Below are positions 14,000-40,536 of a DNA stretch of 64,000 bases, one piece after another (position 1 is the first letter of the stretch; every line of letters starts with the position of its first letter). The notes below the pieces were generated by a model. The model saw only the letters and a list, made by a program, of their open reading frames with translations, made no database searches and was not told the origin of the DNA. The DNA lies in NCBI GenBank assembly GCA_964546275.1, contig CAZJJG010000003.1:2012-66011 (forward strand), given 5' to 3'. This DNA comes from an uncultured Gammaproteobacteria bacterium. GTDB lineage: Bacteria > Pseudomonadota > Gammaproteobacteria > Magnimaribacterales > D2472. Made by a program: the position numbers and the translations under genes.

Positions 14000-14047
14000 A
14001 TTTACCTTTTGGTTAAAGATTTTCTCTTATTTAAGAAAACCAAGGAG
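14000..14047 (-). promoter_or_regulatory. Putative S6:S18-binding leader RNA of rpsF
   Basis: Leader CCUCCUU-GGUUUUCUU(AAAUAA)GAGAAAAUC-UUUAACCAA-AAGGUAAAU-AUG: CCUU can pair with the SD AAGG, enclosing a 9-bp hairpin and a CC-containing loop, as in the described S6:S18 motif. Confidence 0.6.
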
Positions 14048-14052
14048 GGTGC

Positions 14053-14081
14053 ATTCTAATGTATATGTTTTTTACAATCAA
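14053..14081 (-). promoter_or_regulatory. Putative sigma70 promoter of rpsF operon
   Basis: TTGATT (14081-14076, overlapping the ftsA stop), 17-nt spacer, TAGAAT (14058-14053). Confidence 0.6.
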
Positions 14082-18218: not shown

Positions 18219-19261
18219 TACGTGCTCTGATTAAAAATTGATTTAAAAATTATAGTAGTTGCATCTTGGTGATTAAATTTTAAAGTTAATTTTTGCCAGC
18301 TTAAATATTTTTCTTCTTTTATTATGAGTTTTATTTTATCCCTTAGATCCTGTATGCCATCTTTTTGTTCATGTATTACTCCCATGCCTTCTTTTTGAAT
18401 ATATTCTGCATTAAATAGCTGATGATTATCTATAGCATTAGGTAAAGGAATCATTAATAAACCTTTTTTCATTGATACAGTCTCAGATAAGCTTAATGCC
18501 CCTGCTCTTGATATAACAAAATCACACCAATTAATTAATTCTTGAGGGTTATTATAAAATTCTCTGATTTCAATATTACTTGAGCCTTCATAAAGCTTTG
18601 ATACTTCTTCTTTTTTACCCTTGCCACATTGGTGTTTTATTGAAATTGGGTATTTTAAATTTTTTAAAGCGGTTGGGATATTGTCATTAAGATATTTTGC
18701 TCCCTGACTTCCCCCAGTTATATAAATTTTAATATTATTATTTTCATCTGTATGTGATGAAGCTTTAAAAGATTCCCTAATGGGATTTCCTACAATTTCT
18801 GTATTATTTATTATCTTGTCATGTAATGGCATTCCAAGAAAAATTCTTTTAGCAAATTTTGAAGATAATTTATTTGCTGATCCAAGAATTGCATTCTGCT
18901 CATGTACAAATATCGGTTTACTCATAATTGCTGCTGCAATAGTTACTGGAATTGTAATAAATCCTCCAAAAACAATAACGCTATCAATCTTATTCTTGTA
19001 AATAATTCTGAGTAACTTAAAAATATTTATTGGGAGTTGTATAAGAACAAAAATTTTATTAAAAACTCCATTGCCTCTAAAGCCCTGCATATTTATTACC
19101 TGATGCTCAATTCCTGGAACAGTTTGGATAGCATTTTTTTCAATTAAGCTATTAGTACCTAAAAACATAGCTTCATGTCCGTTTTTAATAAACTCTTCTG
19201 CTACTGCTATTGCTGGGTAAATATGCCCTCCTGTCTTGGCTGCTGCAACTAAGATTTTCAT
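18218..19261 (-). CDS. murG: Lipid I N-acetylglucosaminyltransferase
   Basis: TGGHIYPA, HEQNA, GNPIR, GGSQGA, RAGA, HQ..NA. Confidence 0.96.
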   Translation of the reverse strand: MKILVAAAKTGGHIYPAIAVAEEFIKNGHEAMFLGTNSLIEKNAIQTVPGIEHQVINMQGFRGNGVFNKIFVLIQLPINIFKLLRIIYKNKIDSVIVFGGFITIPVTIAAAIMSKPIFVHEQNAILGSANKLSSKFAKRIFLGMPLHDKIINNTEIVGNPIRESFKASSHTDENNNIKIYITGGSQGAKYLNDNIPTALKNLKYPISIKHQCGKGKKEEVSKLYEGSSNIEIREFYNNPQELINWCDFVISRAGALSLSETVSMKKGLLMIPLPNAIDNHQLFNAEYIQKEGMGVIHEQKDGIQDLRDKIKLIIKEEKYLSWQKLTLKFNHQDATTIIFKSIFNQST

Positions 19262-19264
19262 ATT

Positions 19265-20365
19265 TTAATTAAAATTATTTTCATTATTAATTCTTAATAC
19301 TATAGCTATAAAAGACATCATTATTATCATGCTTGTGCCTCCATAGCTTATAAATGGTAATGTTAAACCTTTTGTAGGAAGAAGGCCTATGTTAACTGCT
19401 AAATTGAATAATGCTTGAATGGAAATTAAAAAACCAATTCCAAAAGCAACAAATCCCTGAAAGAATCTCTTTAATGCTAAAGATTGCAATGCAACTGAAA
19501 ATATAGCAAATATCATTATTGAATATAATGATATTAATAAAATAACACCAAAGATACCTAGCTCTTCTACTAAAACAGCAAATATAAAGTCAGTATGGGC
19601 TTCAGGTAAGAAAAGATTCTTTTGAAAACTATTTCCTAACCCTAATCCAAACCAGTTAGCTTGCCCTATACCTATTAATGAATTACTTAATTGCCAACCT
19701 GCTCCAAGCTGAACAGTAAATGGATCCATAAATGACATAACTCTAGTTAATCTAAATGGAGTGAAATAGATTGCAACGAAACCAAGCCCGCCTAACAGAA
19801 GAATCAATAAGCTAAATTGAAAAAATGATATTCCAGCAAAAAATAAAATAGCTACAACAACCGCGCATATAATTGCAGTAGTGCCTAGATCTGGTTGAGA
19901 TAAAATTAAAAATGAAACAATTCCTAAAAGCAGTAATGGTTTAAGGAAGCCCCTGAATGAACTAATTTCTTCCATGCGTCTAACACAATATCCTGATGTG
20001 TATAAAATCATACTAAATTTGCATATTTCTGCTGGCTGGATATTGATTGGTCCAAGTCTAATCCATCTTATGCTCCCATTGACTTCAGTTCCGACTCCTG
20101 GAATAAATAATGCAATTAATAATAAAATACTAATAAGTAGAAACAACCAATCTGTTTTCTCTAATAAACTTGATGGGGTTATTAAAAATATTGTGAATAT
20201 AAATATTCCTATACCGATAAATAAAGCCTGTCTTGTAGCAAAGTGAAATGGATTGCCTGTTAAGTTATCTGCGATATATATACTTGATGATGTCACCATA
20301 ATTAAACCAAGACTAACTAATCCTATTAAGGAGATAATAAGGAAGATGTTATTTTTATAAATCAA
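19265..20365 (-). CDS. ftsW: SEDS peptidoglycan polymerase FtsW
   Basis: NGSIRWI, IQPAEICK, QPDLGT, LPEAHTDFIF, PTKGLTLPFISYGG. Confidence 0.96.
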   Translation of the reverse strand: MIYKNNIFLIISLIGLVSLGLIMVTSSSIYIADNLTGNPFHFATRQALFIGIGIFIFTIFLITPSSLLEKTDWLFLLISILLLIALFIPGVGTEVNGSIRWIRLGPINIQPAEICKFSMILYTSGYCVRRMEEISSFRGFLKPLLLLGIVSFLILSQPDLGTTAIICAVVVAILFFAGISFFQFSLLILLLGGLGFVAIYFTPFRLTRVMSFMDPFTVQLGAGWQLSNSLIGIGQANWFGLGLGNSFQKNLFLPEAHTDFIFAVLVEELGIFGVILLISLYSIMIFAIFSVALQSLALKRFFQGFVAFGIGFLISIQALFNLAVNIGLLPTKGLTLPFISYGGTSMIIMMSFIAIVLRINNENNFN

Positions 20366-21414
20366 TTAAAAAGAATCTCCTTTAATAATTTATTAAAATA
20401 TTCCCCTCTTTCTTCAAAATTTTTAAAATCATTTCCGCTTGGGTAGCCCGGAGAAAATAATATATTTCTAAATTCTTTAGCTTTAGAGATATGAATTAAA
20501 ACTTCTTGTAAATTACTAAAAATATTTTTTTTAGGATGTTTGATACATTTATCAATATCTAAACTATGGGAACCAAAAATAAAAACTTCATCAGGGCCCT
20601 CAATCTTAAAACTACTAAAACCCTCCTTTTCAGGATTGCCACATAGTAATAAGTTGTATTTCTGTAATTTAAAACAATCATTTGCTTTGTCTATAGCATA
20701 TTGTAAAGAGTGCATATTGGTTGATTTAGAATCATTCACCACTGCATCATTAATAAATTCAAATCTAAAAGGCAAATCTTTTAAGCGCATATTTTCTGCC
20801 TGTTTGCCTGTTATCCATTCATATATCTTGTAAGGATTTTCTAGGTTTGAGGATGCTTTTGCTTCTAGTATCTTTTCTTTACAAGATTTGTAATTTTCAA
20901 AATTGCCATGATAATCAAGGTGATCAGGTGCAATATTAAGAAGAATTCCGTAATCAAGTTGTATTTCATGAATTTTATCTAGCTGTTGGCTAGATAATTC
21001 AATAATAGAAAAATCTGCTCCATTATTTAAGCTATCAAGCACTGGATCTCCAATATTTCCTATTAAATTAACTTTATAAGTTTTATTTAATAGCTGAAAG
21101 AGATGAAAACAAGTTGTACTTTTTCTATTAGTGCCAGTAATTCCAATTTTTATAGAAGAATCTTCATTAAAAAAAATATCTATATCTGTCTTGATGCCAG
21201 TTTGTGATAAAGCGTCTAATTTTTTATATTTTTCTTTACTTATTCCTGGGCTGCAATAAATTACATACCAAGCAGCTTCAAGTTCATTTGTAAATTTTTC
21301 TGATATGTATAGCTCTTTATTGTCATCGAATATTTCGTATTCAACATTATTTTTAATAAGGTATCTTTCAATAGATCTTCCAGTTACTCCATAGCCGTAT
21401 ATTAATGACTTCAC
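20362..21414 (-). CDS. murD: MurD-like D-glutamate ligase, shortened and with an atypical P-loop
   Basis: GTG start; SPG, IELSSQQL, PDHLDYH, NDSKSTN, LFSPG; sits between mraY and ftsW; only 350 aa. Confidence 0.85.
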   Translation of the reverse strand: MKSLIYGYGVTGRSIERYLIKNNVEYEIFDDNKELYISEKFTNELEAAWYVIYCSPGISKEKYKKLDALSQTGIKTDIDIFFNEDSSIKIGITGTNRKSTTCFHLFQLLNKTYKVNLIGNIGDPVLDSLNNGADFSIIELSSQQLDKIHEIQLDYGILLNIAPDHLDYHGNFENYKSCKEKILEAKASSNLENPYKIYEWITGKQAENMRLKDLPFRFEFINDAVVNDSKSTNMHSLQYAIDKANDCFKLQKYNLLLCGNPEKEGFSSFKIEGPDEVFIFGSHSLDIDKCIKHPKKNIFSNLQEVLIHISKAKEFRNILFSPGYPSGNDFKNFEERGEYFNKLLKEILFN

Positions 21415-21425
21415 GAAGCAGTTCT

Positions 21426-22511
21426 TTACCTTATTTTAAGGGTTGCTAAAGCAATCAATATTAAGATAATTGTTATGATCCAAAACCTAACTATAATCTT
21501 TGGCTCTTCCCACCCTTTGAGCTCAAAATGATGATGAATAGGTGCCATGAGGAAAACTCTTTTTCCTCTTAATTTAAAAGATATAACTTGAATTGCAACA
21601 CTCAATGTTTCTATTACAAAAACGCCAGCCATGACGGCAAAGACTAATTCATGCCTTAAAATAACAGCAATTATCCCTAAAATTGCTCCTAGTGTGAGCG
21701 ATCCTACGTCACCCATAAATATTTGAGCTGGATAAGTGTTGTACCATAAAAACCCAATGCCCGAGCCCATTAAAGCTCCACAGAATACTATCAACTCTCC
21801 AGATATCTCCAAATGAGGAAGATATAAATAATCTGCAATTACAGTATTACCCATTCCATATGCAATTAATCCAAGAGCCCCAGCAATCAGGATAGTTGGC
21901 AATATTGCTAAACCATCTAAACCGTCTGTTAGGTTCACAGCATTTGAAGAACCAACAACTACAAATGTTCCAACAAGTATAAATAAGAAAGGGCTCATGC
22001 TAATTAAAAGATCTTTATAAAAAGGAACAATAAAAGCTGTTTCAGGAGATGTTTCTGCAGAAATATATAAATATGCTGATGCGCAGAATGCAAAAAATGT
22101 TTGTAAAATAATTTTTTGTTTACTTGATAAGCCATCTGAACTCTTTGATTTTATTTTAAGAAAATCATCTAAAAAACCTACAGAACCAAAACTAATAGTT
22201 ACAAATAAAACTACCCATATATATCTATTCCCTAGGTCTCCCCAAAGTAATGTAGAAATAACTAAAGAAAGTAAGATCAGAAGTCCTCCCATCGTTGGCG
22301 TGCCGGTCTTTTTATAGTGACTTTTAGGTCCATCTACTCGAACATGCTGCTCAAACTGAAGGCGCTTTAATAAATTAATTACAAAAGGTCCTAAGAATAT
22401 TGAAATAAGAAGTGCTGTTGCGGTAGCACCGATAGTTCTTACAGTTAAATATCTTAAAATATCAAAACCAGGATCTGTATTTACTAGAATTGTTCCTAAA
22501 TATTCAAACAT
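21426..22511 (-). CDS. mraY: Phospho-MurNAc-pentapeptide translocase
   Basis: KKTGTPTMGG, SNAVNLTDGLDGLA, FMGDVGSL, MAPIHHHFELKGW. Confidence 0.98.
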   Translation of the reverse strand: MFEYLGTILVNTDPGFDILRYLTVRTIGATATALLISIFLGPFVINLLKRLQFEQHVRVDGPKSHYKKTGTPTMGGLLILLSLVISTLLWGDLGNRYIWVVLFVTISFGSVGFLDDFLKIKSKSSDGLSSKQKIILQTFFAFCASAYLYISAETSPETAFIVPFYKDLLISMSPFLFILVGTFVVVGSSNAVNLTDGLDGLAILPTILIAGALGLIAYGMGNTVIADYLYLPHLEISGELIVFCGALMGSGIGFLWYNTYPAQIFMGDVGSLTLGAILGIIAVILRHELVFAVMAGVFVIETLSVAIQVISFKLRGKRVFLMAPIHHHFELKGWEEPKIIVRFWIITIILILIALATLKIR

Positions 22512-23844
22512 CTATAAATCTCTCCATTTTCATTGCTCTGGATCCTTTTAAAAGGACAGTATCATTTGAATTAATATTTTTCTTTAAAAATCTCTTCAAT
22601 TCAGATTCCTCTTTAAAGAAAATACCTTTTTTACCAAACTCTTCTACAGCATATTTTGTTAAATCTCCAAAACCAAGGAAAATATCTATTTTCTTAGCTC
22701 TTGCATAGTCTCCAATATCTCTATGCATTTTCTTTCTATATCTACCTAGCTCTAACATATCACCTAAAACCAAGATTCTTCTAGTCTTTGAACTTTTTAA
22801 TAAGTCTATAGATTTTTTGACAGAGTCTGGATTAGCGTTATAGGTATCATCTATAAGCAAAGAGCCATTTATCCATTTAGATTGTTTTTGTCTAATAGCT
22901 TCATCTAAGCTCTCCTTTAAGCTATTGATAAATAATTCTGTAGAGTTTTTTAAGAAAAAAGAGGCTGCAAAACTGGATAAAATATTTTTAACATTATGCT
23001 CTCCAGCTAAAAAAGTATTTATTTTTACTTTGATTTTGTATTTTTTTGAGCAAATATTAAATTCTGTCTTATTTATACTATATTTAATATCTGAAGGATA
23101 AAAATCTGCACTACTGCTGAGACCAAAAGTGATGATAGTAATGTCATTTCTTATTTGCTGCCAAAATTTTAAATGCTTTTTATTATCATTTGGCACCACA
23201 AGACATCCGCTTTTTTTAATATTATTAATTAATTCAGACTTTACTTTTAATACACCTTTAATATTTTTTAATTTTTCAAGATGTGAGTTACCTATATTAG
23301 TTATAACTCCAACATTTGGCCTTAAAATTGAGCTTAGATACTGAATATCTTTAGGCTTTGCTGCCCCCATCTCAATAATTAAATTTTTTGAGTTTATATT
23401 TGCAAGCATTATGCTCAGCGGCATTCCGATCTCATTATTAAAGTTTTTATGAGTAGATGAGCTCTTTTTTAGGGCATTAGATAGTATTTTAGTTGTTGTT
23501 GTTTTTCCATTGCTTCCTGTAATTCCAATAACATTGCCCGTGTATGTCTTTAAAATATTTTTTGATATCTTTTTTAGAGCTGCTATAGAATTGGCTACAT
23601 AAATTAAGTGTTTATCTTGTGAATTTTTAAATTTTATATTGTCAGTTATAACTAAAGATGCTCCTTTTTTAAGAGCTTCATCAATATAGTCGTTTCCATT
23701 AAAATTATCGCCTTTTATAGCTATAAACAAACTTCCTTTTTTTAAGGTTCTTGTGTCAATAGAAATATTCTTAATGTCTATATTTTTCTTTAATGATAAA
23801 TCAAGATATTTAGCTAGATAATTTGAGTTACTTATAAATTTCAT
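22504..23844 (-). CDS. murF: UDP-MurNAc-tripeptide--D-Ala-D-Ala ligase
   Basis: ITGSNGKTTT, NFNNEIGMP, IEMG, DDTYNANPDS, LGDMLELG, LKGSR. Confidence 0.96.
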   Translation of the reverse strand: MKFISNSNYLAKYLDLSLKKNIDIKNISIDTRTLKKGSLFIAIKGDNFNGNDYIDEALKKGASLVITDNIKFKNSQDKHLIYVANSIAALKKISKNILKTYTGNVIGITGSNGKTTTTKILSNALKKSSSTHKNFNNEIGMPLSIMLANINSKNLIIEMGAAKPKDIQYLSSILRPNVGVITNIGNSHLEKLKNIKGVLKVKSELINNIKKSGCLVVPNDNKKHLKFWQQIRNDITIITFGLSSSADFYPSDIKYSINKTEFNICSKKYKIKVKINTFLAGEHNVKNILSSFAASFFLKNSTELFINSLKESLDEAIRQKQSKWINGSLLIDDTYNANPDSVKKSIDLLKSSKTRRILVLGDMLELGRYRKKMHRDIGDYARAKKIDIFLGFGDLTKYAVEEFGKKGIFFKEESELKRFLKKNINSNDTVLLKGSRAMKMERFIDV

Positions 23845-25309
23845 TTACTACCTCATGGTCACTAAAATAAGATATCTTCCCGCCAATATCCTGGGTTTCT
23901 TCATGCCCTTTTCCTAAAATAACCATGCAATCATTATCACCCATTAATCCATTTCCATGAATAATTGCTTCTCTTCTATCCTCTATTAGAATTACATCTT
24001 TGATAATATTTCCTATTGATGCGTCAGCAAAAATATTTTCGAAGGCTTCACTTCTTGAGTTATCAGATGTAAAAATAATTTTTACTCCATATTCTATAGC
24101 TATGCTTAACATCTCTGGTCTTTTTAATTTATCTCTATCTCCGCCACATCCAAAAACAATAATTAAATTATTAAAATAATTATTAATTGATGACAGCAGA
24201 AACTTAAATCCATCTGGATTATGTGCATAATCAATAATAATATTTGAATCAATATTAGGAATAAGTTCAGTTCTTCCTTTGGGAAGTTTTAAAAAAGACA
24301 CATCGTTAAAATCATCTTCTAAGAAATTATTAAATCCTATTACTGAAATTGCAAACACAAGATTATTAATATTAAATTCTGGAAATAAACTACATGAAAA
24401 ATTATATTTGCAACTTTTAAGACTGTTATCTGATAAATAAACTAATGATGCATTATTTATAGTTATTGAAAAAGTAGTTATTTTTATGCTGGATTCAATA
24501 ATCTCATAATAAATATCTGACAATTTGTTTTTATTGCTTACAGAGTAAATTTGAGGGTAATGATCCTTGGTAGATATTAAATCTTCATTAATTAGCCTTA
24601 ATGAGCTTATGTTATTAAATATTTTAAACTTTGTTTGAGCATACTCTTCTATGTTTGAGTGATAATCCAGATGATCTCTTCCAATATTTAAAAGTGATGC
24701 AGAATGAACTGATGTAAGATCAAATAGTCTTTTTTGATCAAGTGCATGAGAAGAAATTTCAATACAAATATTTGCAGACTTTAGATCATAATTCTTCAGA
24801 ATTTCATAGAATTCAAATATATCAGGAGTTGTTTTACTGTAAAGAGAAGTATTTACTTCTTCATTATTATACTGAGCTCCCAAAGTACCAATATAAAGGG
24901 AATTATCTCCTGCATTAAGTATAAGTTGATGGCAAAGATGAGCTGTTGATGTTTTACCATTAGTACCTGTAAAGGTATGAATCAGAAATTTTGAGGGATC
25001 AATTTTAAAGAATGCTTTTAAAAAATAATATACTTTTGTATTTTTAGTGGCATCTTCTTGCTCTTGCAAGTCTTGAATATAAAAAATATTATTTTGATCT
25101 GATCTATATGAAGAATCATTATGAACTACTATTGATGCTCCTAATTCTAATGCTTTTTCTATATATACACTTCCATGGTTTTGTGAGCCAGGCAAAGCAA
25201 AAAATATAGAATTTTTTCTAATCTTCTGGGTAGAATTGGTTGCGCTAGAAATTTCTATTCCAGGCGGAAAAGATATACCAAGTATTTCTTCTAGCTTATT
25301 CACTTTCAA
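23828..25309 (-). CDS. murE: UDP-MurNAc-dipeptide--meso-DAP ligase
   Basis: TTG start; TGTNGKTST, KTTPD, EISSHAL.Q.R, IDYAHNPD, FGCGGDRD, SDNSR, GKGHE. Confidence 0.95.
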   Translation of the reverse strand: MKVNKLEEILGISFPPGIEISSATNSTQKIRKNSIFFALPGSQNHGSVYIEKALELGASIVVHNDSSYRSDQNNIFYIQDLQEQEDATKNTKVYYFLKAFFKIDPSKFLIHTFTGTNGKTSTAHLCHQLILNAGDNSLYIGTLGAQYNNEEVNTSLYSKTTPDIFEFYEILKNYDLKSANICIEISSHALDQKRLFDLTSVHSASLLNIGRDHLDYHSNIEEYAQTKFKIFNNISSLRLINEDLISTKDHYPQIYSVSNKNKLSDIYYEIIESSIKITTFSITINNASLVYLSDNSLKSCKYNFSCSLFPEFNINNLVFAISVIGFNNFLEDDFNDVSFLKLPKGRTELIPNIDSNIIIDYAHNPDGFKFLLSSINNYFNNLIIVFGCGGDRDKLKRPEMLSIAIEYGVKIIFTSDNSRSEAFENIFADASIGNIIKDVILIEDRREAIIHGNGLMGDNDCMVILGKGHEETQDIGGKISYFSDHEVVNEIYK

Positions 25310-26924
25310 AATATCCTAAATAACTTAATGTATCAGAAGCTATTTCAGCAAATAAAGGTGCAGCAATTTCACCACCTTTATAAGCATTTAAACCAGGCTG
25401 GTAAATAGAAACAAAAATAGTAAGATCTTTTGTTTCTAAGGGAGCTATGCCTACAAAAGATGCAGTATAAATACTTTTCTCATACCCACCATCTTTCGAA
25501 CTTTTATGAGATGTTCCTGTTTTTCCTCCTACATTAAAACCTGATACTCTTGCATTTTTTCCAGAACCATTCTCTACAACATCATGCAAAGCAAATAGAA
25601 TTTTATTTGCTGATTCTGCAGAAATAATTTGTTCTTCATATTTATATTCGTCATTCATAACTATGGTAAATTCTTTATAAATGCCATTATTCGCAAAGAC
25701 GGAATAAGCAGAGGCGATTTGATATGGGCTTGCCTCCATACCATAACCAAAACCTAAGTTAGCTATTTCAATATCAGACATATTATTTCTAGTATTAATA
25801 GTTCCAAATGAAGCTGAGGGAAAATTTAAGTTAATAGGCTTGCTAAATCCAAAATTTTTGTAGGTTGAAATAATATTATCTGCACCTAGCATTAAAGCAA
25901 TTTTTGAAGCGCCAACCTGGCTTGAATTAGTTATAACTTCATATGCCTTTAGAAGACCGTGATTTTTATAATCACTTATAGAATAATTATTTAAAGAAAT
26001 ATAACCAGGCGAGGTATCCAGAGTATCATCTATATCAATCAAACCCATATCAAAAGCTTTAGCCATAGCAATAGGTTTAAGAACAGATCCCGGCTCGTAG
26101 GTATCAAGCAAAGCTCTGTTTTTTTGACTTTTTCTATTAGAATTATTGGGATTGTATGAAGGGAAGCTGGCCATTGCTAAAATTTCGCCGGTTGAATTAT
26201 CTAAAACAATCGCTGTGCCACTTTTTGCTTGACTATTTTTAACAGCTTCCACCAATTTCTTATATGTAAAAAATTGTATGTTGCTATCAATTGTTAAATG
26301 AAGATCTTTACCGTCCTCTTTTGCTTCAATGCTAATAGCCTTAGAGATAATTTCTCCTTTTCTATTTTTATAATACTTTTGCTTACCATCAATTCCAGAC
26401 AAGAAGGAGTTATAACTTTTTTCGATACCTTCTAGGCCATAGTTATCTTTGCCAGAAAATCCAATTAGAGGAGCTATTTGATCTCCAAGCGGATAATGTC
26501 TTGAAAACCTAACCTCAATTTCAAAATTCTTTATTGAAGAAGTTTTTATAAAATTTATTTCTTTTAAAGATAAACTTTTATAAATTAGCATCTTTCTATT
26601 TTGAGACTTAATGTCATCAAAGGATGGCTTTAGTTCAATTAAATTATCTAAAATAGAATAATCATTAGCAGAAAAATTTTTTAGAGCATAAATGTCGTAA
26701 TGAGTTAATGATATCGCAAGGGGTATTTGATTTCGATCATAAATAGTTCCTCTGATAGGAAGAGTTTTTCTATATGCAATATGCTGATTCTGCCCCCAAT
26801 CTTTTAAAAAATTTTCTTTATCGATTTGTAAAAAAATTACTCTCACAGAAATTGCGCAGACAGAGGCTATTAGAAAAATTAATATAATAAAAAAACGCCA
26901 GTTAAAATAATTTAATTTCTTCAT
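25296..26924 (-). CDS. ftsI: Penicillin-binding protein 3 (FtsI)
   Basis: RGTIYDRN, GLEGIE, EPGSVLK (SxxK), SSQ (SxN variant), GKTGT. Confidence 0.95.
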   Translation of the reverse strand: MKKLNYFNWRFFIILIFLIASVCAISVRVIFLQIDKENFLKDWGQNQHIAYRKTLPIRGTIYDRNQIPLAISLTHYDIYALKNFSANDYSILDNLIELKPSFDDIKSQNRKMLIYKSLSLKEINFIKTSSIKNFEIEVRFSRHYPLGDQIAPLIGFSGKDNYGLEGIEKSYNSFLSGIDGKQKYYKNRKGEIISKAISIEAKEDGKDLHLTIDSNIQFFTYKKLVEAVKNSQAKSGTAIVLDNSTGEILAMASFPSYNPNNSNRKSQKNRALLDTYEPGSVLKPIAMAKAFDMGLIDIDDTLDTSPGYISLNNYSISDYKNHGLLKAYEVITNSSQVGASKIALMLGADNIISTYKNFGFSKPINLNFPSASFGTINTRNNMSDIEIANLGFGYGMEASPYQIASAYSVFANNGIYKEFTIVMNDEYKYEEQIISAESANKILFALHDVVENGSGKNARVSGFNVGGKTGTSHKSSKDGGYEKSIYTASFVGIAPLETKDLTIFVSIYQPGLNAYKGGEIAAPLFAEIASDTLSYLGYFESE

Positions 26925-26931
26925 CTGTCTA

Positions 26932-27198
26932 TTATTTTATTTTTACAACTGTAGGTTTTACTTTTTGCATAGTTAAATTCTTTCTTGCTATCTGCTCTAC
27001 TCTTGCTGGAGAATTTAAAAAGTAAGCCTCAGTTTTGAGTTTATGCTCTTCTTCTTTAAGGTTTTGATACTCTGTATTTATACGATCTTGATTTCCATAT
27101 AGAAGACCTATTTCCCATCTAACTTTTATTTGTTCAATAGAAAGAAAAATTATTAAAGCTAACTGAGCAAAAAGTAATAAGGCAAAATTTAATTTCAT
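26932..27198 (-). CDS. ftsL: Cell division protein FtsL
   Basis: TM plus coiled coil, PARVEQIARKNLTM; between rsmH and ftsI. Confidence 0.85.
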   Translation of the reverse strand: MKLNFALLLFAQLALIIFLSIEQIKVRWEIGLLYGNQDRINTEYQNLKEEEHKLKTEAYFLNSPARVEQIARKNLTMQKVKPTVVKIK

Positions 27199-28094
27199 GG
27201 AAGTTTTTTAAAGACTCGCATGATTGCACTTCTAGAGCGTTTATTTTTGTTAACTTCAAAGTCACTTGGTCTAATTTTTCTTGCAATACAATCAAATTCT
27301 TTTATGACTATTGGGTTGATTGGAATTTCTCTTGGAATGTCTTCTACTTGAGTCTTAAATGTGTTCTTAACGATTGAATCTTCGAGAGAGTGAAAAGATA
27401 TAACAACTATTTTACCTCCAGTTTTTATTAGTTTTTTCGACTTATTTAAAGCTTCATCTAATTCATTAAGCTCGTCATTAATAAAAATTCTAAAAGCTTG
27501 AAAAGATTTTGTTGCTGGATGAATTTTAGAATATTTTTTTGAAGAAACGGATTTAATGATATTTGCTAATTGAGATGTTGTCTCTATATCTGCATCCTTT
27601 CTATTCACACAAATAGCTTTTGCAATTGCTCTAGCATTTTTTTCTTGACCATATTTATAGAGCACATTAATGATTTCTTTTTCGTCTGCTATGTTAATCC
27701 ATTTAGAAAGAGGTCTTCCTGTATTGTAATTAAATCGCATATCCAATGGGCCATCATCTCTGAAGCTAAAACCTCTAGATTTATCATCAAAATGAGTAGA
27801 ACAAGTTCCTAAATCAAATAGAATTCCATCAAGTGAACCTTCCTCAAAAATTGTATCTATTTGATTAAATGAATTATAAATAATATTAAATCTTGGATCT
27901 TTTATGTGTGTTTCTGCAAATTTAATAGCATCTGGATCTTTATCAAAAGCTGTAAGTTTTCCTTCTGATAAAAGCTTATTTAAGATAGATTTGCTGTGGC
28001 CACCTCGACCAAAAGTGCAGTCTAAATATGAACCAACTTTATTATCAACTAGAAAACCAATAGATTCTTCCAGCAATACTGGAAAATGGAGCAT
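27195..28094 (-). CDS. rsmH: 16S rRNA m4C1402 methyltransferase
   Basis: HFPVLLEE, DCTFGRGGHS, GPLDMR, HPATKSFQAFRI.IN.EL, ISFHSLED. Confidence 0.97.
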   Translation of the reverse strand: MLHFPVLLEESIGFLVDNKVGSYLDCTFGRGGHSKSILNKLLSEGKLTAFDKDPDAIKFAETHIKDPRFNIIYNSFNQIDTIFEEGSLDGILFDLGTCSTHFDDKSRGFSFRDDGPLDMRFNYNTGRPLSKWINIADEKEIINVLYKYGQEKNARAIAKAICVNRKDADIETTSQLANIIKSVSSKKYSKIHPATKSFQAFRIFINDELNELDEALNKSKKLIKTGGKIVVISFHSLEDSIVKNTFKTQVEDIPREIPINPIVIKEFDCIARKIRPSDFEVNKNKRSRSAIMRVFKKLP

Positions 28095-28095
28095 T

Positions 28096-29223
28096 TTAGT
28101 CTACTTGTTTACGCATAAAAGTCGGCACATCAAGGTAATCAATTACCTCTGCAGACGATGTGCCGCCTTCTTGACTTGCTTTAACTGCAAACTCTTTTTC
28201 TAAGCCTACAGGATTTAATTTAATTGAAGCGCTTCTTCTATTATTATCAACAGCCAGGGTTGGAGCTTTCTGATTCACTCCAGTTGCTACAATAGTTACC
28301 AGTAAGTCCTCTTCTATATCATTATCAATAACTGTTCCATAGATGACGACAGCATCGTCAGCAGTAAATTCTTCAACGATATTACTTACTTCTTCATAAT
28401 CATTTAGTGTAGGTTCTTTTGCGGTAATATTGACAAGTACGCCTCTAGCATCTTTAAGATCAATATCTTCTAGTAATTCGCTTCCTACAGCTTGAGAGGC
28501 TGCTTCAGAAGCTCTATCTTTCCCATTAGATCTTCCAGTGCCCATCATTGCAATTCCCTTCTCTGACATCACTGTTTTTACATCAGCGAAATCAACATTG
28601 ATTAAACCATCTTTCATAATAATGTCAGAAATTCCTTGAACGGCTCCTTTAAGAACATCATCAGCCTTTGCAAAAGCATCAGTCATGCTTGTATTACCAC
28701 CCAGTACTTCTATTAATCTTTGATTCGGAATTGTGATTAAACTATCAACTTCTTCAACTAGCGCTGCTAACCCTTGTTCAGCAGAAGTCATTCTTCTTTT
28801 ACCTTCAAATTTAAAAGGTTTTGTAACTACAGCAACAGTTAATGCTCCCATCTCTTTAGCAATGGATGCAACCACGGGAGCTGCACCAGTCCCAGTACCT
28901 CCACCCATTCCGGCTGTTATAAAAATCATATCAGCATCAGCTAAAAGCTCTTGAATTGCTTCTCTGTCTCCTTCAGCAGCTTGACGTCCAATTTCTGGGT
29001 TAGCTCCTGCTCCAAGACCTTTTGTTAAATTACTGCCTAATTTAAGTGATATTGCGCCATCAGCTCTAGCTAGAGCCTGAGTATCAGTATTTGCACAAAT
29101 AAAATCAACTCCCTGAATTTGATGATTGATCATATGGATAACAGCGTTTCCGCCAGCTCCACCTACACCAATTACTTTAATTTTTGCTTGTTCAACTTGT
29201 TGATCTACAACTTCCCAATTCAT
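28096..29223 (-). CDS. ftsZ: Cell division protein FtsZ
   Basis: VIGVGGAGGNAV, AGMGGGTGTG tubulin signature, NVDFADV, C-terminal LDVPTFMRKQVD. Confidence 0.99.
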   Translation of the reverse strand: MNWEVVDQQVEQAKIKVIGVGGAGGNAVIHMINHQIQGVDFICANTDTQALARADGAISLKLGSNLTKGLGAGANPEIGRQAAEGDREAIQELLADADMIFITAGMGGGTGTGAAPVVASIAKEMGALTVAVVTKPFKFEGKRRMTSAEQGLAALVEEVDSLITIPNQRLIEVLGGNTSMTDAFAKADDVLKGAVQGISDIIMKDGLINVDFADVKTVMSEKGIAMMGTGRSNGKDRASEAASQAVGSELLEDIDLKDARGVLVNITAKEPTLNDYEEVSNIVEEFTADDAVVIYGTVIDNDIEEDLLVTIVATGVNQKAPTLAVDNNRRSASIKLNPVGLEKEFAVKASQEGGTSSAEVIDYLDVPTFMRKQVD

Positions 29224-29236
29224 ATTTATCCCCTAT

Positions 29237-29704
29237 TTAAAAAGACATCTCTTTTATGCTCGTTGGAAGAACAACATCTAAAATCTCTGTAGCTAATGTT
29301 CCTCCGGTTTGACGTATATTCCAATTATCTGTGTTCCAAATTTCAAATTTATTTCCCATACCTATAAATGAAATTTTATTATCCTGATTAAGCTGAGCAT
29401 AATTTCTTAGCTCTTGTGGCAATAAGATTAGCATTCTGCCATTTGGATCAAATTCTGTAACACTTGCATTGCCTAGAATGGTCCATTGTAAATTTCTTAC
29501 GATTGGATCTAAGCCTTGAAGCGATTGAAGTTTTTCAGAAATAATGTTCCAGTCAGAACCTTTATAAACTTTTAACGAGGGGTATTGAGGATCCTTAGTA
29601 ATAACTATTTCTTTTTCGTTTGTTAAAAGAAAATCAGAACGATACTTAGCAGGTATTGAGAACCTGTGCTTTTGATCTATAGATATCGTATTGTATCCAA
29701 ACAT
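29237..29704 (-). CDS. mraZ: Transcriptional regulator MraZ
   Basis: Two SpoVT/AbrB-like repeats (SIDQKHRFSIPAKYR; EFDPNGRMLILLPQELR..A; GMGNKFEIW). Confidence 0.88.
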   Translation of the reverse strand: MFGYNTISIDQKHRFSIPAKYRSDFLLTNEKEIVITKDPQYPSLKVYKGSDWNIISEKLQSLQGLDPIVRNLQWTILGNASVTEFDPNGRMLILLPQELRNYAQLNQDNKISFIGMGNKFEIWNTDNWNIRQTGGTLATEILDVVLPTSIKEMSF

Positions 29705-29732: not shown

Positions 29733-29771
29733 CACACTTTATAACATTTTTTGCACACTTTCACACACTTT
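29733..29771 (-). promoter_or_regulatory. MraZ-type operator: direct repeats at about 10-bp spacing
   Basis: CACACTTT (AAAGTGTG on minus strand) at 29733, 29754 and 29764, plus a degenerate AACATTTT at 29743; directly upstream of mraZ and overlapping a TGT-TATAAA extended -10-like element. Confidence 0.75.
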
Positions 29772-29791
29772 TTTTAATTTTATACAAAAAT

Positions 29792-30122
29792 GAGTTGGTC
29801 TGTAAGCCGGATTCTGTAAAAGATGATCATCTATCTTGGCTATGTGTCACCACAAAGCTCTAGCAACCTACCCAAATCCTAAGCGAGCAGCCTAAGGATT
29901 TCTATTTGGTCTTGCTTCGGGATGGGGTTTACAATGCCTTAAATGTTACCATTTAAGCGGTGCGCTCTTACCGCACCTTTTCACCCTTACCAATATAATT
30001 GGCGGTATATTTTCTGCTGCACTTTCCGTAGGCTCACGCCTCCCAGGAGTTACCTGGCGCCCTGCTCTATGAAGTCCGGACTTTCCTCTAAAGCAAAGCT
30101 TTAGCGATCATCCAACCAACTC
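29792..30122 (-). ncRNA. rnpB: RNase P RNA (type A, compact)
   Basis: Minus strand GAGUUGG...GAGGAAAGUCC...GGAAAGUGCAGCAGAAA...GGGUGAAAAGGUGCGGUAAGAGCGCACC...ACAGAAUCCGGCUUAC...CCAACUC; P1 and P4 conserved; rsmI-rnpB-mraZ synteny. Confidence 0.96.
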
Positions 30123-30140
30123 GGAGAGAATTATAGACAT

Positions 30141-30956
30141 TTATTTGTCTATCAGCCACTTATAAAGATCTCTTTTATTTTTACTCGTTAATGCTGCTAA
30201 TAATTTAGCAGCGTCTTTCGCAGGTAAATGTTCTAAATATAGGTCTTTAATCTTTTGACTAAGATTCAAATCTAGATTAATTTTTTTAGAGCCCTCAAGA
30301 ACAATTACAAACTCACCTTTAGTTGTTATCTCATTATTTTTAAATTTATTATTCATATTTCCAACAGAGTCTCTAATAACCTCTTCATACTTTTTTGTCA
30401 TTTCTCGACATAGAATAATTCTTCTATCAAACTCAAGATACTCTGCAAATACGGAGATTGTTTTTTCTAATCTTTTTGCTGATTCAAAAAATATGATAGT
30501 TTCAGATACATCATTTAGTGATTTGCTCATTTCTATTTGATCTGTTTTTTTTCTTGGAAAAAATCCTTTAAAGGAAAATGCATCTGAAGGGAGGCCTGAT
30601 AGAATCAAAGCATTTATAACTGATGATGGGCCTGGTAAGACTGTAAACTGAATATTATGTTTAATGCATTCTTGTGAAAGATAATAACCAGGGTCAGAGA
30701 TACAAGGAGCCCCAGCATCAGTGATTATTGCAATTTTATTTCCATCATTTAATTGATTAATTATTTCTGGAGTAATTTTAATTTCATTATGTTCGTGAAA
30801 TGATTTAGATTTTTTATTAATATTAAAGTTAATGAGTAAATTATTGGTATTTCTAGTATCTTCTGCATAAATAAAATCTGCAGACTCAAGAAGACTTATT
30901 GACCTCATAGAGATATCATTTAAATTACCAATTGGACTACATATAAAATTTAACAT
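30141..30956 (-). CDS. rsmI: 16S rRNA Cm1402 methyltransferase
   Basis: SPIGNLNDIS, AEDTR, TDAGAPCISDPG, LPGPSS, CREMTKKYEE, KGEFVIV. Start set at the ATG of MLNFIC (30956). Confidence 0.95.
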   Translation of the reverse strand: MLNFICSPIGNLNDISMRSISLLESADFIYAEDTRNTNNLLINFNINKKSKSFHEHNEIKITPEIINQLNDGNKIAIITDAGAPCISDPGYYLSQECIKHNIQFTVLPGPSSVINALILSGLPSDAFSFKGFFPRKKTDQIEMSKSLNDVSETIIFFESAKRLEKTISVFAEYLEFDRRIILCREMTKKYEEVIRDSVGNMNNKFKNNEITTKGEFVIVLEGSKKINLDLNLSQKIKDLYLEHLPAKDAAKLLAALTSKNKRDLYKWLIDK

Positions 30957-30966
30957 AAACGTACTT

Positions 30967-32172
30967 TTGAAAAAAAAATCATTACTAAGTTCATTATCTT
31001 TCGCTTTAGCAGTAATGCTTGTGAATAGTTGTGCTACTTCTTCAAATAATAGCTTATATAGCAATGAACTTACAAATGATAGTGAGCCTATTCAAGTTCT
31101 TTCTGTTGAAGAGCTTTTTTATATTAGAGATTTAGATACTGAAGAATTAATAAACAAAAGAGCTGTAATAACCGAATCGATAAAATATAAAGGTCTTAGT
31201 AAATCTCAATTAGTTGAGCTTAATTTAATAGCTAACTCTTCTTATGCAAAGCCTTATACAAAAAATATAATAAAAAATTTATATAAAAATGATGAGGCTC
31301 TTAAAAAAAATAAAAGGATAGTTATCAGCCTAGATATAGACGAAGTGTATAAAAATTATTTAATTCAAGCTATAGCTAATTTAGGTTGGAACATAGAGCT
31401 AATTTTTGATAAAAATAATCCAGATATATTTATAAGTTCAAATATTCTTGATGAAAATCTTCCGGGTTTTTGTAGTTCATTTCAAAGAGATCAAGCTGCC
31501 TCAATTGAAAAAGTAATTTTTCGTAAAAACTCTTCTGAATATCAAGATACGCTTGTAATCTATGAAGACGCTTTTAAAAGCGAACATTTCGAACTATTAA
31601 ATAATTATAAAAATATTCGATCTGCTTTATATACTAATAATTCATATGAAATATTTGCATCAAATATTTTAGGTGTTTCAGAAAGCGCAAATAGATTTAA
31701 AAAAATAAATGCCTTACTTCCCAATATAAAGATAAATAATATTCCAAGAGTAAGACAGGACATTAAAAATATTTATTTTCTGATGAGTTATGAAAAAGCT
31801 AAAGGGCTTGTTCCAGCTTTTAGATATAACTACTCAATTGATATTAATTCGTATGCATCTATAAACCTAATTAAAAATATAAGTGACCTTAATAAAATAA
31901 TTGATTTTGAATCGCTTATTATTCCTGCCCCGCATCAACTGGGAGATGTTATATTTTTAGAGCAGTTTTCAAAGAATACTCTTTTAAAAGAAAGACTGAT
32001 TTATGACAACCTGCATGATCTAATTATAAGTATTTATCTTCAAAAAAGTGGCATACAGAAAGCGATTATAAACGGGAGAAGTGGAATACTCTTTATGAAT
32101 GCTGGTCAGTGCACAAGACGAGAATTGCCTCTTAAAAAGATAGATTCTGAAGGAAGTTTTAAGCCTCTCTAA
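30967..32172 (+). CDS. LpoA/LppC-like lipoprotein (PBP activator), shortened
   Basis: TTG start, lipobox VNSC, divergent from rsmI; C-half PRVRQDIKNIYF..LVPAFRYNY...INGRSGIL resembles the LppC domain. Confidence 0.65.
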   Translation: MKKKSLLSSLSFALAVMLVNSCATSSNNSLYSNELTNDSEPIQVLSVEELFYIRDLDTEELINKRAVITESIKYKGLSKSQLVELNLIANSSYAKPYTKNIIKNLYKNDEALKKNKRIVISLDIDEVYKNYLIQAIANLGWNIELIFDKNNPDIFISSNILDENLPGFCSSFQRDQAASIEKVIFRKNSSEYQDTLVIYEDAFKSEHFELLNNYKNIRSALYTNNSYEIFASNILGVSESANRFKKINALLPNIKINNIPRVRQDIKNIYFLMSYEKAKGLVPAFRYNYSIDINSYASINLIKNISDLNKIIDFESLIIPAPHQLGDVIFLEQFSKNTLLKERLIYDNLHDLIISIYLQKSGIQKAIINGRSGILFMNAGQCTRRELPLKKIDSEGSFKPL

Positions 32173-40491: not shown

Positions 40492-40536
40492 TGCTCTATT
40501 ATATCATTTGAATGATAAGAAAAATTATATGAAATT

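What the first reader, a model, noticed from the sequence alone, without database searches (positions are those of the whole stretch)
28096..29704. ftsZ moved from the end of the dcw cluster to between mraZ and rsmH
Seen: order mraZ-ftsZ-rsmH-ftsL-ftsI-murE-murF-mraY-murD-ftsW-murG-murC-ddl-ftsQ-ftsA, then rpsF, with no lpxC. Junctions are tight (13 bp holding a strong AGGGGA SD before ftsZ; 1 bp before rsmH), which argues for a settled arrangement rather than an assembly scar. Established: mraZ-rsmH and ftsQ-ftsA-ftsZ are among the most conserved adjacencies in bacteria. Inference: placing ftsZ second gives the high FtsZ:FtsA ratio by operon polarity and puts FtsZ under direct MraZ control, a different logic for division control.
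Basis: partly seen in the sequence, partly recalled or inferred. Interest (0 to 1): 0.7.

Follow-up and report, generated by a model that had tools for sequence, protein, structure and literature searches.

The report
ftsZ relocated next to mraZ in SAR86
In the abundant marine SAR86 bacteria the key cell-division gene ftsZ sits second in the division/cell-wall operon instead of last. This is a real, clade-wide, apparently undescribed rearrangement of one of the most conserved gene orders in bacteria, and it comes with a conserved RNA hairpin at the new ftsZ/rsmH boundary.

Summary
On the minus strand the order is rsmI, rnpB, mraZ, ftsZ, rsmH, ftsL, ftsI, murE, murF, mraY, murD, ftsW, murG, murC, ddl, ftsQ, ftsA, then rpsF-rpsR-rplI-dnaB. 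The junctions are 13 nt (AGGGGA) and 1 nt.

It is not an assembly scar. The identical locus occurs on many independent contigs, and DNA depth across it is flat. All 52 SAR86 species representatives show mraZ-ftsZ-rsmH. These include single-cell genomes, megabase-scale contigs and a closed chromosome. All 28 outgroups keep ftsZ at the 3' end of the cluster, after ftsA in 25. In 76 of 76 informative SAR86 contigs ftsA is followed by rpsF.

FtsZ is canonical and closest to Pseudomonadales, so it was moved rather than imported. MraZ boxes lie upstream of mraZ. RNA contigs join mraZ to ftsZ. ftsZ is the dcw mRNA detected most consistently (12 of 12 metatranscriptomes).

New here: the last 22 codons of ftsZ carry a SAR86-specific hairpin (-25 kcal/mol) with compensatory changes and strongly suppressed synonymous variation. 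It probably sets the expression step between ftsZ and the downstream genes.

MraZ-driven ftsZ transcription is already known in Burkholderia, and ftsA RNA is not clearly lower than ftsZ RNA. I found no publication describing the arrangement.

The parts
30141..31064 (-). rsmI (16S rRNA 2'-O-methyltransferase), the ancestral upstream neighbour of the cluster
   Evidence: Pfam TP_methylase + RsmI_C. Present upstream of mraZ in all SAR86 loci with enough flank.
29787..30123 (-). rnpB, RNase P RNA, directly upstream of the mraZ promoter region
   Evidence: Rfam RF00010, 326 bits, full length. RNA depth in the thousands to tens of thousands in most metatranscriptomes.
29734..29768 (-). Four phased MraZ boxes (GTGT, GTGT, ATGT, GTGT; 10-11 nt period), the putative operator overlapping the dcw promoter
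   Evidence: Sequence. At least 3 in-phase boxes in 47 of 52 sequences (window plus 51 SAR86 loci) versus 2 of 1040 shuffles. Matches the GTG(G/T) + 6-nt spacer consensus (PMC12957436).
29237..29704 (-). mraZ
   Evidence: Pfam MraZ, two stretches.
29229..29234 (-). AGGGGA Shine-Dalgarno of ftsZ inside the 13-nt mraZ-ftsZ spacer (29224-29236)
   Evidence: Spacer of 8-17 nt with a G-rich SD in 50 of 52 SAR86 species, GGGG in nearly all. Duplex dG -6.4 kcal/mol, among the strongest in the cluster.
28096..29223 (-). ftsZ (375 aa), a canonical FtsZ with GGGTGTG and the C-terminal peptide DYLDVPTFMRKQVD
   Evidence: Pfam. Best PDB match 2vaw, an FtsZ chain (P. aeruginosa by my recollection of the entry), E 4e-121, full length. 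Core identity 62-63% to Pseudomonadales.
28113..28175 (-). Conserved RNA hairpin inside the last ~22 codons of ftsZ (core arms 28157-28169 / 28119-28131), followed by UUUUAUG
   Evidence: MFE -25.2 kcal/mol, z -4.18. 10-bp helix 97.7% paired in 44 distinct sequences, 3 pairs with double changes, 0 of 500 shuffles. Codon entropy 0.53 vs 1.27 bits, p 2.6e-8. No shared counterpart seen in 28 outgroups. No Rfam family.
28095..28095 (-). Single nucleotide between the ftsZ stop and the rsmH start
   Evidence: -1 to +4 nt in all 51 SAR86 loci that reach rsmH.
27195..28094 (-). rsmH, with a small invariant hairpin at codons 4-9 (28069-28083, UCCAGU...ACUGGA)
   Evidence: Pfam Methyltransf_5. Helix 4 is 98.5% paired, but with no compensatory change.
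15297..27198 (-). ftsL-ftsI-murE-murF-mraY-murD-ftsW-murG-murC-ddl-ftsQ in canonical order
   Evidence: Pfam and NCBIfam.
14078..15307 (-). ftsA, now the last gene of the cluster
   Evidence: Pfam FtsA + SHS2_FTSA. Followed by rpsF in 76 of 76 informative contigs.
13565..14077 (-). 78-nt ftsA-rpsF spacer with a promoter-like TTGATT-17-TAGAAT, then rpsF (followed by rpsR, rplI, dnaB)
   Evidence: Sequence. Pfam S6, NCBIfam S18. rpsF RNA detected in 11 of 12 runs.

Best explanation
On the stem lineage of the SAR86 order (Magnimaribacterales), the resident, vertically inherited ftsZ was moved from the 3' end of the dcw operon (after ftsA) to position 2, between mraZ and rsmH. ftsA became fused to the rpsF-rpsR-rplI-dnaB block.

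Shown:
- The order is fixed in every SAR86 genome examined.
- The junctions are kept tight.
- ftsZ keeps a conserved G-rich SD.
- mraZ and ftsZ are on one transcript.
- A canonical MraZ-box array precedes mraZ.
- A SAR86-specific RNA hairpin, maintained by selection at synonymous sites, occupies the last ~22 codons of ftsZ just before the 1-nt ftsZ/rsmH junction.

Inferred: in these streamlined genomes, promoter-proximal position plus a strong SD replaces the battery of ftsZ-proximal promoters used in E. coli. This would make FtsZ the most abundantly made product of the operon. The hairpin, with the small hairpin in the rsmH 5' end, would set the step-down in expression to rsmH and the 13 genes behind it. 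It could do so through mRNA stability or processing, partial termination, or by limiting translational coupling. Which of these applies is unknown.
For: Order and junctions.

Independent assemblies and flat DNA depth with unitigs across the junctions.

Clade-wide distribution: 52 of 52 SAR86 against 0 of 28 outgroups. The SAR86 set includes SAGs, a 1.26-Mb contig and the closed chromosome CP097973.1. ftsA is followed by rpsF in 76 of 76 contigs.

Vertical origin: core identity is 62-63% to Pseudomonadales, 58-60% to other Gammaproteobacteria and 55-58% to Acidobacteriota. The best PDB match is the FtsZ chain 2vaw, with a canonical C-terminal peptide.

MraZ boxes: with the consensus from PMC12957436.

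SD.

Co-transcription and RNA pattern. The uneven RNA pattern contrasts with the flat DNA depth.

Hairpin. G·U-type substitutions keep pairing on the mRNA strand only.
Against: Expression evidence is only the k-mer depth of unstranded assembled contigs from metatranscriptomes, with 3-6 contigs per run in the region. Some rsmH/ftsL RNA appears at depths close to ftsZ.

ftsA RNA is about as detectable as ftsZ RNA in the best runs, so simple polarity does not explain an FtsZ:FtsA ratio.

The hairpin lies inside the coding sequence. Termination or 3' trimming at it would give non-stop ftsZ mRNAs, which is awkward for the terminator and stabiliser versions.

The U-tract after the hairpin is not under special constraint (TTT 37 of 50, TTC 13 of 50).

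Promoter-like hits in the cluster are not above shuffles, so internal promoters can be neither shown nor excluded.

The selective advantage of the move is untested. It could be a neutral event frozen by operon constraints.
Confidence: 0.6

Rival explanations
1. Neutral, frozen accident. A rearrangement, for example tandem duplication of rsmH...ftsZ followed by reciprocal losses, happened once in a small streamlined ancestor. It persists only because any further break of the operon is deleterious, and position 2 gives no regulatory benefit.
For: A single event on the stem explains the distribution. No direct measurement shows higher FtsZ output. ftsA RNA is similar to ftsZ RNA. In Burkholderia the canonical order already works with a single MraZ-controlled promoter (PMC7761207).
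Against: The new boundary has acquired its own conserved features. These are a G-rich SD in 50 of 52 species, a -1 to +4 nt stop-start junction, and a lineage-specific hairpin under purifying selection at synonymous sites. ftsZ is the dcw mRNA seen in 12 of 12 runs.
Confidence: 0.25
2. Assembly or binning artefact: a chimeric join placing ftsZ between mraZ and rsmH.
For: None found. The window is from an uncultured lineage usually known from MAGs.
Against: The same join appears in SPAdes, Tara and other assemblies from many samples, in single-cell genomes, in megabase-scale contigs and in a closed chromosome. Flat DNA depth and unitigs cross every junction in four metagenomes, with no joints. 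RNA contigs cross both junctions.
Confidence: 0.01
3. Xenologous replacement. The native ftsZ after ftsA was lost and a foreign ftsZ was inserted after mraZ.
For: tblastn best-segment identities to Acidobacteriota (55-57% over the core only) looked as high as those to Pseudomonadales (52-54% over the full length).
Against: Over the same core (residues 13-315), identity is highest to Pseudomonadales (62-63%), then other Gammaproteobacteria (58-60%), then Acidobacteriota (55-58%). The C-terminal peptide and best PDB match are Pseudomonas-like. The raised GC of the mraZ-ftsZ bin (0.37 against about 0.29 for its neighbours) is what I would expect of a Gly/Ala-rich conserved gene, but I did not test it as a foreign-DNA signal.
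Confidence: 0.04
4. The conserved 3' segment of ftsZ reflects only protein-level constraint (a conserved VGTSSAE..IDFLDVPTFMRKQVD tail), not an RNA element.
For: The C-terminal peptide of FtsZ is functionally conserved everywhere, and the structure was derived from these same sequences.
Against: At columns with a conserved amino acid, codon entropy is 0.53 bits in the tail versus 1.27 in the rest. This is the lowest of 225 sliding windows, p 2.6e-8. GC-ending codons are fixed in a 30% GC genome: GGC 44 of 49, TCG 48 of 50, GAG 41 of 41, TTC 48 of 48, GTG 45 of 50. Paired synonymous changes occur, GGC/GTG to GGT/GTA. Pairing is 94% versus 50% or less when partners are slid.
Confidence: 0.08

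Closest known systems
Canonical gammaproteobacterial dcw (mra) cluster (E. coli, Pseudomonas): mraZ-rsmH-ftsL-ftsI-murE-murF-mraY-murD-ftsW-murG-murC-ddlB-ftsQ-ftsA-ftsZ-lpxC
   Same: Same gene set, same orientation and tight packing. The order of the other 14 genes is the same. The upstream context is also the same (rplM-rpsI-petABC-sspA...rsmI-rnpB-mraZ, as in Pseudomonas by my own knowledge; genes verified). MraZ boxes lie upstream of mraZ.
   Different: ftsZ is second instead of last. ftsA is the last gene and abuts rpsF. lpxC is not adjacent and not in the window. A hairpin is embedded in the ftsZ 3' coding end.
Burkholderia cenocepacia dcw operon (PMC7761207)
   Same: A single MraZ-controlled promoter with four GTG repeats drives a polycistronic mRNA that includes ftsZ. 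No active internal ftsZ promoters were found, and the authors invoke post-transcriptional control of ftsZ.
   Different: ftsZ keeps its distal position there. In SAR86 the gene itself has moved to the promoter-proximal end.
Reduced mollicute cell-division operon mraZ-rsmH(mraW)-ftsA-ftsZ (PMC12957436, PMC8475190)
   Same: ftsZ lies close to mraZ in one MraZ-regulated operon, with four MraZ boxes at 10-bp spacing.
   Different: That proximity arose by deletion of the wall-synthesis genes, and the rsmH-ftsA-ftsZ order is retained. In SAR86 all wall genes are present and ftsZ has jumped ahead of rsmH.
Intercistronic hairpins that set differential expression within operons (for example REP in malEFG, the puf operon stem-loops) and intrinsic attenuators
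   Same: A stable GC-rich stem-loop exactly at the boundary between a gene needed in high amount and genes needed in low amount. A U-rich run follows it in most species.
   Different: It lies inside the coding sequence, with the stop codon about 12-20 nt downstream of the stem (depending on where the stem is taken to end), not in a spacer. The U-tract is not specially conserved. Function is untested, and no Rfam family matches.

Membership tests
dcw (division and cell wall) cluster, canonical gammaproteobacterial form | Contiguous, co-oriented mraZ, rsmH, ftsL, ftsI, mur/mraY/ftsW genes, ddl, ftsQ, ftsA, ftsZ | tested here: met
   All 15 genes identified by Pfam or NCBIfam on one strand with overlaps or short spacers.
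dcw (division and cell wall) cluster, canonical gammaproteobacterial form | Gene order with mraZ-rsmH adjacent and ftsQ-ftsA-ftsZ(-lpxC) at the 3' end | tested here: not met
   The order is mraZ-ftsZ-rsmH, and ftsA is followed by rpsF. Same in 52 of 52 SAR86 species and 76 of 76 ftsA contigs. No lpxC in the window.
dcw (division and cell wall) cluster, canonical gammaproteobacterial form | MraZ operator: 3-4 direct GTG(G/T) boxes at a ~10-bp period at the promoter upstream of mraZ | tested here: met
   Four boxes at 29768-29734. At least 3 phased boxes in 47 of 52 sequences (window plus 51 SAR86 loci) vs 2 of 1040 shuffles. Consensus from PMC12957436 and PMC7761207. Binding itself was not tested.
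FtsZ (bacterial tubulin homologue) | Tubulin/FtsZ GTPase domain with GGGTG(T/S)G, FtsZ C-terminal domain, disordered linker and conserved C-terminal peptide for FtsA/ZipA binding | tested here: met
   Pfam PF00091 at 1.6e-49 and PF12327 at 3.8e-26. GGGTGTG present. DYLDVPTFMRKQVD aligns with DYLDIPAFLRRQAD of chain 2vaw.
Rho-independent terminator / attenuator | GC-rich stem-loop immediately followed by a conserved U-tract, located where transcripts end | tested here: inconclusive
   The stem is met. UUUU follows in 37 of 50 species, CUUC in 13 of 50. The element is inside the CDS. One RNA contig reads through it (X2, 27841-28311). Coincident contig ends near 28103/28104 are within chance expectation. 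The consensus scan did not flag it.
Known cis-regulatory RNA families (Rfam 15) | Match to a curated covariance model | tested here: not met
   Only a sub-threshold chance hit elsewhere in ftsZ (SurA, 19.9 vs 100 bits). Nothing at the hairpin.

The most novel reading that the evidence does not exclude
The relocation and the embedded hairpin together form a new operon architecture. ftsZ is the lead structural gene, and a stem-loop in its last codons acts as a translation-sensitive gate. The gate could work by attenuation, processing, or control of re-initiation. Expression of the 14 downstream wall and division genes would then be conditioned on, and scaled down from, FtsZ synthesis. This would be a position-plus-RNA solution replacing multi-promoter control in a streamlined genome.
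Probability: 0.15. Interest if true: 0.8.

Novelty: new variant of a known kind. Interest (0 to 1): 0.6.

Why it matters
The dcw order, and ftsA-ftsZ adjacency in particular, is a textbook example of extreme gene-order conservation. It has been tied to ideas such as "genomic channeling", in which gene order shapes assembly of the division machinery.

A whole, globally abundant marine order breaks that order in one precise way and has kept the new order through deep divergence (RsmH down to about 44% identity). It is therefore a natural experiment on why the order is conserved and on how FtsZ dosage is set without dedicated promoters. A cultured representative now exists (HIMB1674, PMC11582366), so the predictions are testable.

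There is also a practical point. Marine studies use ftsZ transcripts as a growth index across taxa (PMC13349992). In SAR86, ftsZ has a different transcriptional context from other taxa, which may bias such comparisons.

Tried and rejected
1. Sigma-70 promoter and terminator scan of the cluster. Hits were not above shuffles, so it says nothing on internal promoters.
2. Inferring RNA 3' ends from contig ends. Ends coincide at 28103/28104 and at 28208/28209. With about 50 contig ends in 1.2 kb, roughly 3 such coincidences are expected by chance, so no inference was drawn.
3. Rfam search at a permissive threshold. There was no family for the hairpin.
4. Search for Nanopore runs holding the locus. 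None was listed. Megabase-scale and closed assemblies were used as support instead.
5. HGT origin of ftsZ. Rejected on core-domain identities. The neighbour-joining tree is rough and was not used for more than that.
6. The hairpin as a repeated element. It is unique in the window and is the only GC-rich inverted repeat in the cluster.
7. The hairpin as a DNA palindrome or operator. This is unlikely, because many substitutions are G·U-compatible on the mRNA strand only.
8. Literature. Seven full-text searches and five papers were read, and none mentions ftsZ between mraZ and rsmH. Absence from this library is not proof. Megrian et al. 2022 on dcw evolution was not held.
9. Location of lpxC in SAR86, and a survey of other phyla for mraZ-ftsZ adjacency.
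Full report
**1. What is in the window**

All genes of interest are on the minus strand. Pfam and NCBIfam identify the following:

| Gene | Coordinates |
|---|---|
| rsmI | 31064-30141 |
| mraZ | 29704-29237 |
| ftsZ (Tubulin + FtsZ_C) | 29223-28096 |
| rsmH | 28094-27195 |
| ftsL | 27198-26932 |
| ftsI | 26924-25296 |
| murE, murF, mraY, murD, ftsW, murG, murC | in canonical order |
| ddl | 16839-15913 |
| ftsQ | 15926-15297 |
| ftsA | 15307-14078 |
| rpsF | 13999-13565 |
| rpsR | 13564-13370 |
| rplI, dnaB, alr | following rpsR |

Rfam finds a full-length RNase P RNA between rsmI and mraZ (30123-29787).

The mraZ TAA is followed by ATAGGGGATAAAT and then the ftsZ ATG. The ftsZ TAA is followed by one base and then the rsmH ATG. 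The window holds a single FtsZ signature and no LpxC motif.

Further upstream lie rplM, rpsI, the cytochrome bc1 genes and an SspA-like GST. By my own knowledge this is the Pseudomonas neighbourhood of mraZ. The 5' context is therefore ancestral, and the only change at that end is ftsZ wedged between mraZ and rsmH.

**2. It is real**

The exact FtsZ protein is indexed in 130 blocks of the assembly collection. The 10 places shown come from different samples and assemblers, and all have rsmI-mraZ-ftsZ-rsmH-ftsL-ftsI-murE-murF-mraY.

Four DNA metagenomes cover the 17.8 kb cluster at flat depth (about 15x, 30x, 35x and 10x). Single unitigs cross mraZ|ftsZ, ftsZ|rsmH and ftsA|rpsF, and no joints were reported.

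**3. It is clade-wide and derived**

A scan of one genome per GTDB species returned 52 SAR86 loci, with FtsZ 69-93% identical to the query. They include single-cell genomes (AG-*, AAA076-P13, AAA168-P09), a 1.26-Mb contig and several others of hundreds of kb, and a closed chromosome (CP097973.1).

All 52 have mraZ-ftsZ, and the 51 that extend past ftsZ continue with rsmH. This holds although RsmH identity falls to 44% and RsmI to 39%.

All 28 outgroup loci keep ftsZ at the end of the cluster. They are Pseudomonadales, BD1-7, Marinobacterium, Gallibacterium and Acidobacteriota, and one is labelled Cyanobacteriota. In 25 of them ftsZ follows ftsA. In two Marinobacterium loci it follows ftsQ with no ftsA hit, and one Marinobacterium contig is too short to show the upstream gene.

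A metagenome scan with FtsA returned 80 SAR86-type contigs (FtsA 71-97% identical). In all 76 with enough sequence, ftsA is followed after 79-94 nt by rpsF(-rplI-dnaB), never by ftsZ.

Over the FtsZ core, SAR86 is closest to Pseudomonadales (62-63%), then other Gammaproteobacteria (58-60%), then Acidobacteriota (55-58%). The best solved structure is the FtsZ chain 2vaw (P. aeruginosa by my recollection), which aligns through the C-terminal peptide.

The simplest reading is one relocation of the resident gene on the SAR86 stem. A path with viable intermediates would be tandem duplication of rsmH...ftsZ, followed by loss of rsmH...ftsA from the first copy and of ftsZ from the second. That path is inference only.

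**4. Features of the new position**

- **Promoter and operator.** Upstream of mraZ there are four GTGT/ATGT boxes at a 10-11 nt period (29768-29734). Across 52 sequences (the window plus 51 SAR86 loci), 47 have at least 3 phased boxes, against 2 of 1040 shuffles. This is the published MraZ operator: GTG(G/T) boxes with 6-nt spacers, three or four per promoter (PMC12957436), and four repeats overlapping the TSS in Burkholderia (PMC7761207).
- **Translation signal.** The mraZ-ftsZ spacer is 8-17 nt in 50 of 52 species and carries a G-rich SD, GGGG in nearly all. Of the other two, one has a frameshifted mraZ and one probably a misplaced start. Its predicted anti-SD pairing (-6.4 kcal/mol) is among the strongest in a cluster where many genes have essentially none.
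- **Junction with rsmH.** The ftsZ stop and the rsmH start are -1 to +4 nt apart in all 51 SAR86 loci that reach rsmH. rsmH has no SD of its own (-1.6 kcal/mol), which suggests translational coupling.

**5. A conserved RNA hairpin at the ftsZ/rsmH boundary (not in the finding)**

The last ~22 codons of ftsZ fold into a stem-loop of about 50 nt at 28175-28113. It has -25.2 kcal/mol and z -4.18, and 0 of 200 shuffles fold as well. The 221-nt context gives z -3.17. It is the only GC-rich inverted repeat in the cluster and is unique in the window.

It is present in essentially all SAR86 species. No shared counterpart was apparent when I inspected the 28 outgroup ftsZ 3' ends.

On an alignment of 49 sequences (44 distinct), the named structure behaves as follows:
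- It is 94.4% paired, against 50% or less when partners are slid.
- The 10-bp lower helix is 97.7% paired, and three of its pairs show changes on both sides.
- None of 500 shuffles reached the observed paired fraction, compensatory counts or covariation score. One of 500 matched the count of further pair types.
- Many single changes are A-to-G, giving G·U. These preserve pairing only on the mRNA strand.

Selection acts on the nucleotides, not just the peptide. At columns with a conserved amino acid, mean codon entropy is 0.53 bits in codons 354-375 against 1.27 elsewhere. This is the lowest of 225 sliding windows (Mann-Whitney p 2.6e-8). GC3 there is 0.35 against 0.19. Examples of fixed codons are GGC 44 of 49, TCG 48 of 50, TCT 50 of 50, GAG 41 of 41, TTC 48 of 48 and GTG 45 of 50, and GGC/GTG changes pair with GGT/GTA.

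A second, small invariant hairpin (UCCAGU...ACUGGA) sits at rsmH codons 4-9 (28083-28069). It shows no compensatory change, so its support is weaker. No Rfam family matches either element.

**6. Expression evidence (weak but consistent)**

Only assembled contigs of public metatranscriptomes were available, and their depth is a poor proxy for expression. Counts of runs with RNA in each bin, out of 12:

| Bin | Runs with RNA |
|---|---|
| ftsZ body (28250-28843) | 12 of 12 |
| ftsZ 5' / mraZ 3' | 10 of 12 |
| rpsF | 11 of 12 |
| ftsA | 6 of 12 |
| One murE/murF bin | 7 of 12 (partly traces) |
| Remaining bins, rsmH to ftsQ | 0-5 of 12 (most 0-4) |

The pattern is not DNA carry-over, because DNA depth is flat. 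RNA contigs cross the mraZ|ftsZ junction in 7 runs: X1, X2, X4, X6, X8, X10 and X12. One run crosses ftsZ|rsmH (X2, 27841-28311).

At finer scale, some rsmH/ftsL RNA appears at depths not far below ftsZ. ftsA RNA is comparable to ftsZ RNA in the richest runs.

So the data show co-transcription and ftsZ as the most consistently detected mRNA. They do not show a clean polar gradient or an FtsZ:FtsA ratio set by polarity.

**7. How it most likely works**

Shown: the position, the tight junctions, the SD, the operator, co-transcription and the conserved hairpin.

Inferred: SAR86, with a streamlined genome, obtains high FtsZ output from promoter-proximal position and a strong SD. E. coli instead uses several ftsZ-proximal promoters. 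The hairpin then sets how much expression passes into rsmH and the 13 genes behind it.

Candidate sub-mechanisms, with the main problem for each:
- Partial termination or attenuation that a closely following ribosome suppresses.
- Protection of the upstream mRNA segment after cleavage.
- Confinement or limitation of re-initiation at the rsmH AUG between the two hairpins.

The first two would generate non-stop ftsZ mRNAs. The U-tract also shows no special constraint: TTT in 37 of 50 species and TTC in 13. I therefore give no sub-mechanism more than about one chance in three.

**8. Comparison with what is known**

The gene set and 14 of the 15 relative positions are those of the canonical gammaproteobacterial dcw cluster. 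The defining order feature (mraZ-rsmH; ftsA-ftsZ-lpxC) was tested and is not met.

MraZ control of ftsZ is not new. B. cenocepacia transcribes mraZ through ftsZ from one MraZ-regulated promoter with no internal promoters (PMC7761207), and mollicutes have mraZ-rsmH-ftsA-ftsZ (PMC12957436, PMC8475190). In E. coli, MraZ repression reaches mraZ through murC (Eraso et al., as summarised in PMC7761207). Placing ftsZ second would therefore put it in the most strongly MraZ-affected part of the operon, which is a difference of degree.

I found no paper that mentions the SAR86 arrangement. The SAR86 isolate paper has no occurrence of ftsZ, division, dcw or synteny. Surveys of dcw order do not report it.

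**9. Verdict**

The arrangement is a new, clade-defining variant of a known cluster, with an added undescribed RNA element.

Interest is moderate to high for cell-division and genome-evolution specialists. The mechanism can be tested in the cultured strain.

Noticed in passing
window 28069-28083 (minus strand): Small invariant hairpin UCCAGU-loop-ACUGGA in rsmH codons 4-9, 11 nt after the start codon. CCA and CTG codons are fixed in a 30% GC genome. It may be ancestral to rsmH (the PVLL motif) rather than linked to ftsZ. Outgroup rsmH was not examined.
   Followed up: partly
L065 and L066 (Marinobacterium sp. xm-d-530), L066:4047-6149: murC-ddl-ftsQ is followed directly by ftsZ with only a 48-nt gap. 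There is no ftsA between ftsQ and ftsZ, and the FtsZ C-terminus is atypical (YDVPSYLRR). This may be another departure from the ftsQ-ftsA-ftsZ adjacency.
   Followed up: partly
window 20362-21414 (minus strand): MurD is only 350 aa (typical length about 440). It scores below the NCBIfam equivalog cut-off (181.7 vs 211.95 bits) and matches in two stretches. MurG is also just under its cut-off (238.9 vs 250.25).
   Followed up: no
window 30967-32172 (plus strand): A 401-aa ORF with a lipoprotein-like signal (…LVNSC) has no Pfam or NCBIfam hit. It lies divergent to rsmI, where Pseudomonas has lpoA (own knowledge). It may be a highly diverged LpoA.
   Followed up: no
window 14000-14077 (minus strand): The ftsA-rpsF spacer holds a promoter-like TTGATT-17 nt-TAGAAT whose -35 overlaps the ftsA stop codon, and an AU-rich hairpin. 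There is no convincing terminator for the dcw operon, so read-through into rpsF is possible.
   Followed up: partly
window 29787-30123: rnpB lies immediately upstream of the mraZ-ftsZ promoter in every SAR86 locus seen. A 2026 study (PMC13349992) normalises ftsZ transcripts to RNase P as a growth index, and in SAR86 the two loci are neighbours.
   Followed up: no
window ~38000-41000: Cumulative GC skew reaches its minimum at about 38-40 kb. Gene orientation switches from minus to plus at about 40.5 kb (ORF list). This may be a replication origin region about 10 kb from the dcw promoter. No dnaA or DnaA-box check was done.
   Followed up: no
L014 (CAJIYN010000001.1, 859-kb contig): mraZ, rsmI, ftsL, ftsI and murE give split tblastn hits with frame changes. 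I suspect assembly indel errors rather than pseudogenes, but did not test this. The gene order is still mraZ-ftsZ-rsmH.
   Followed up: no
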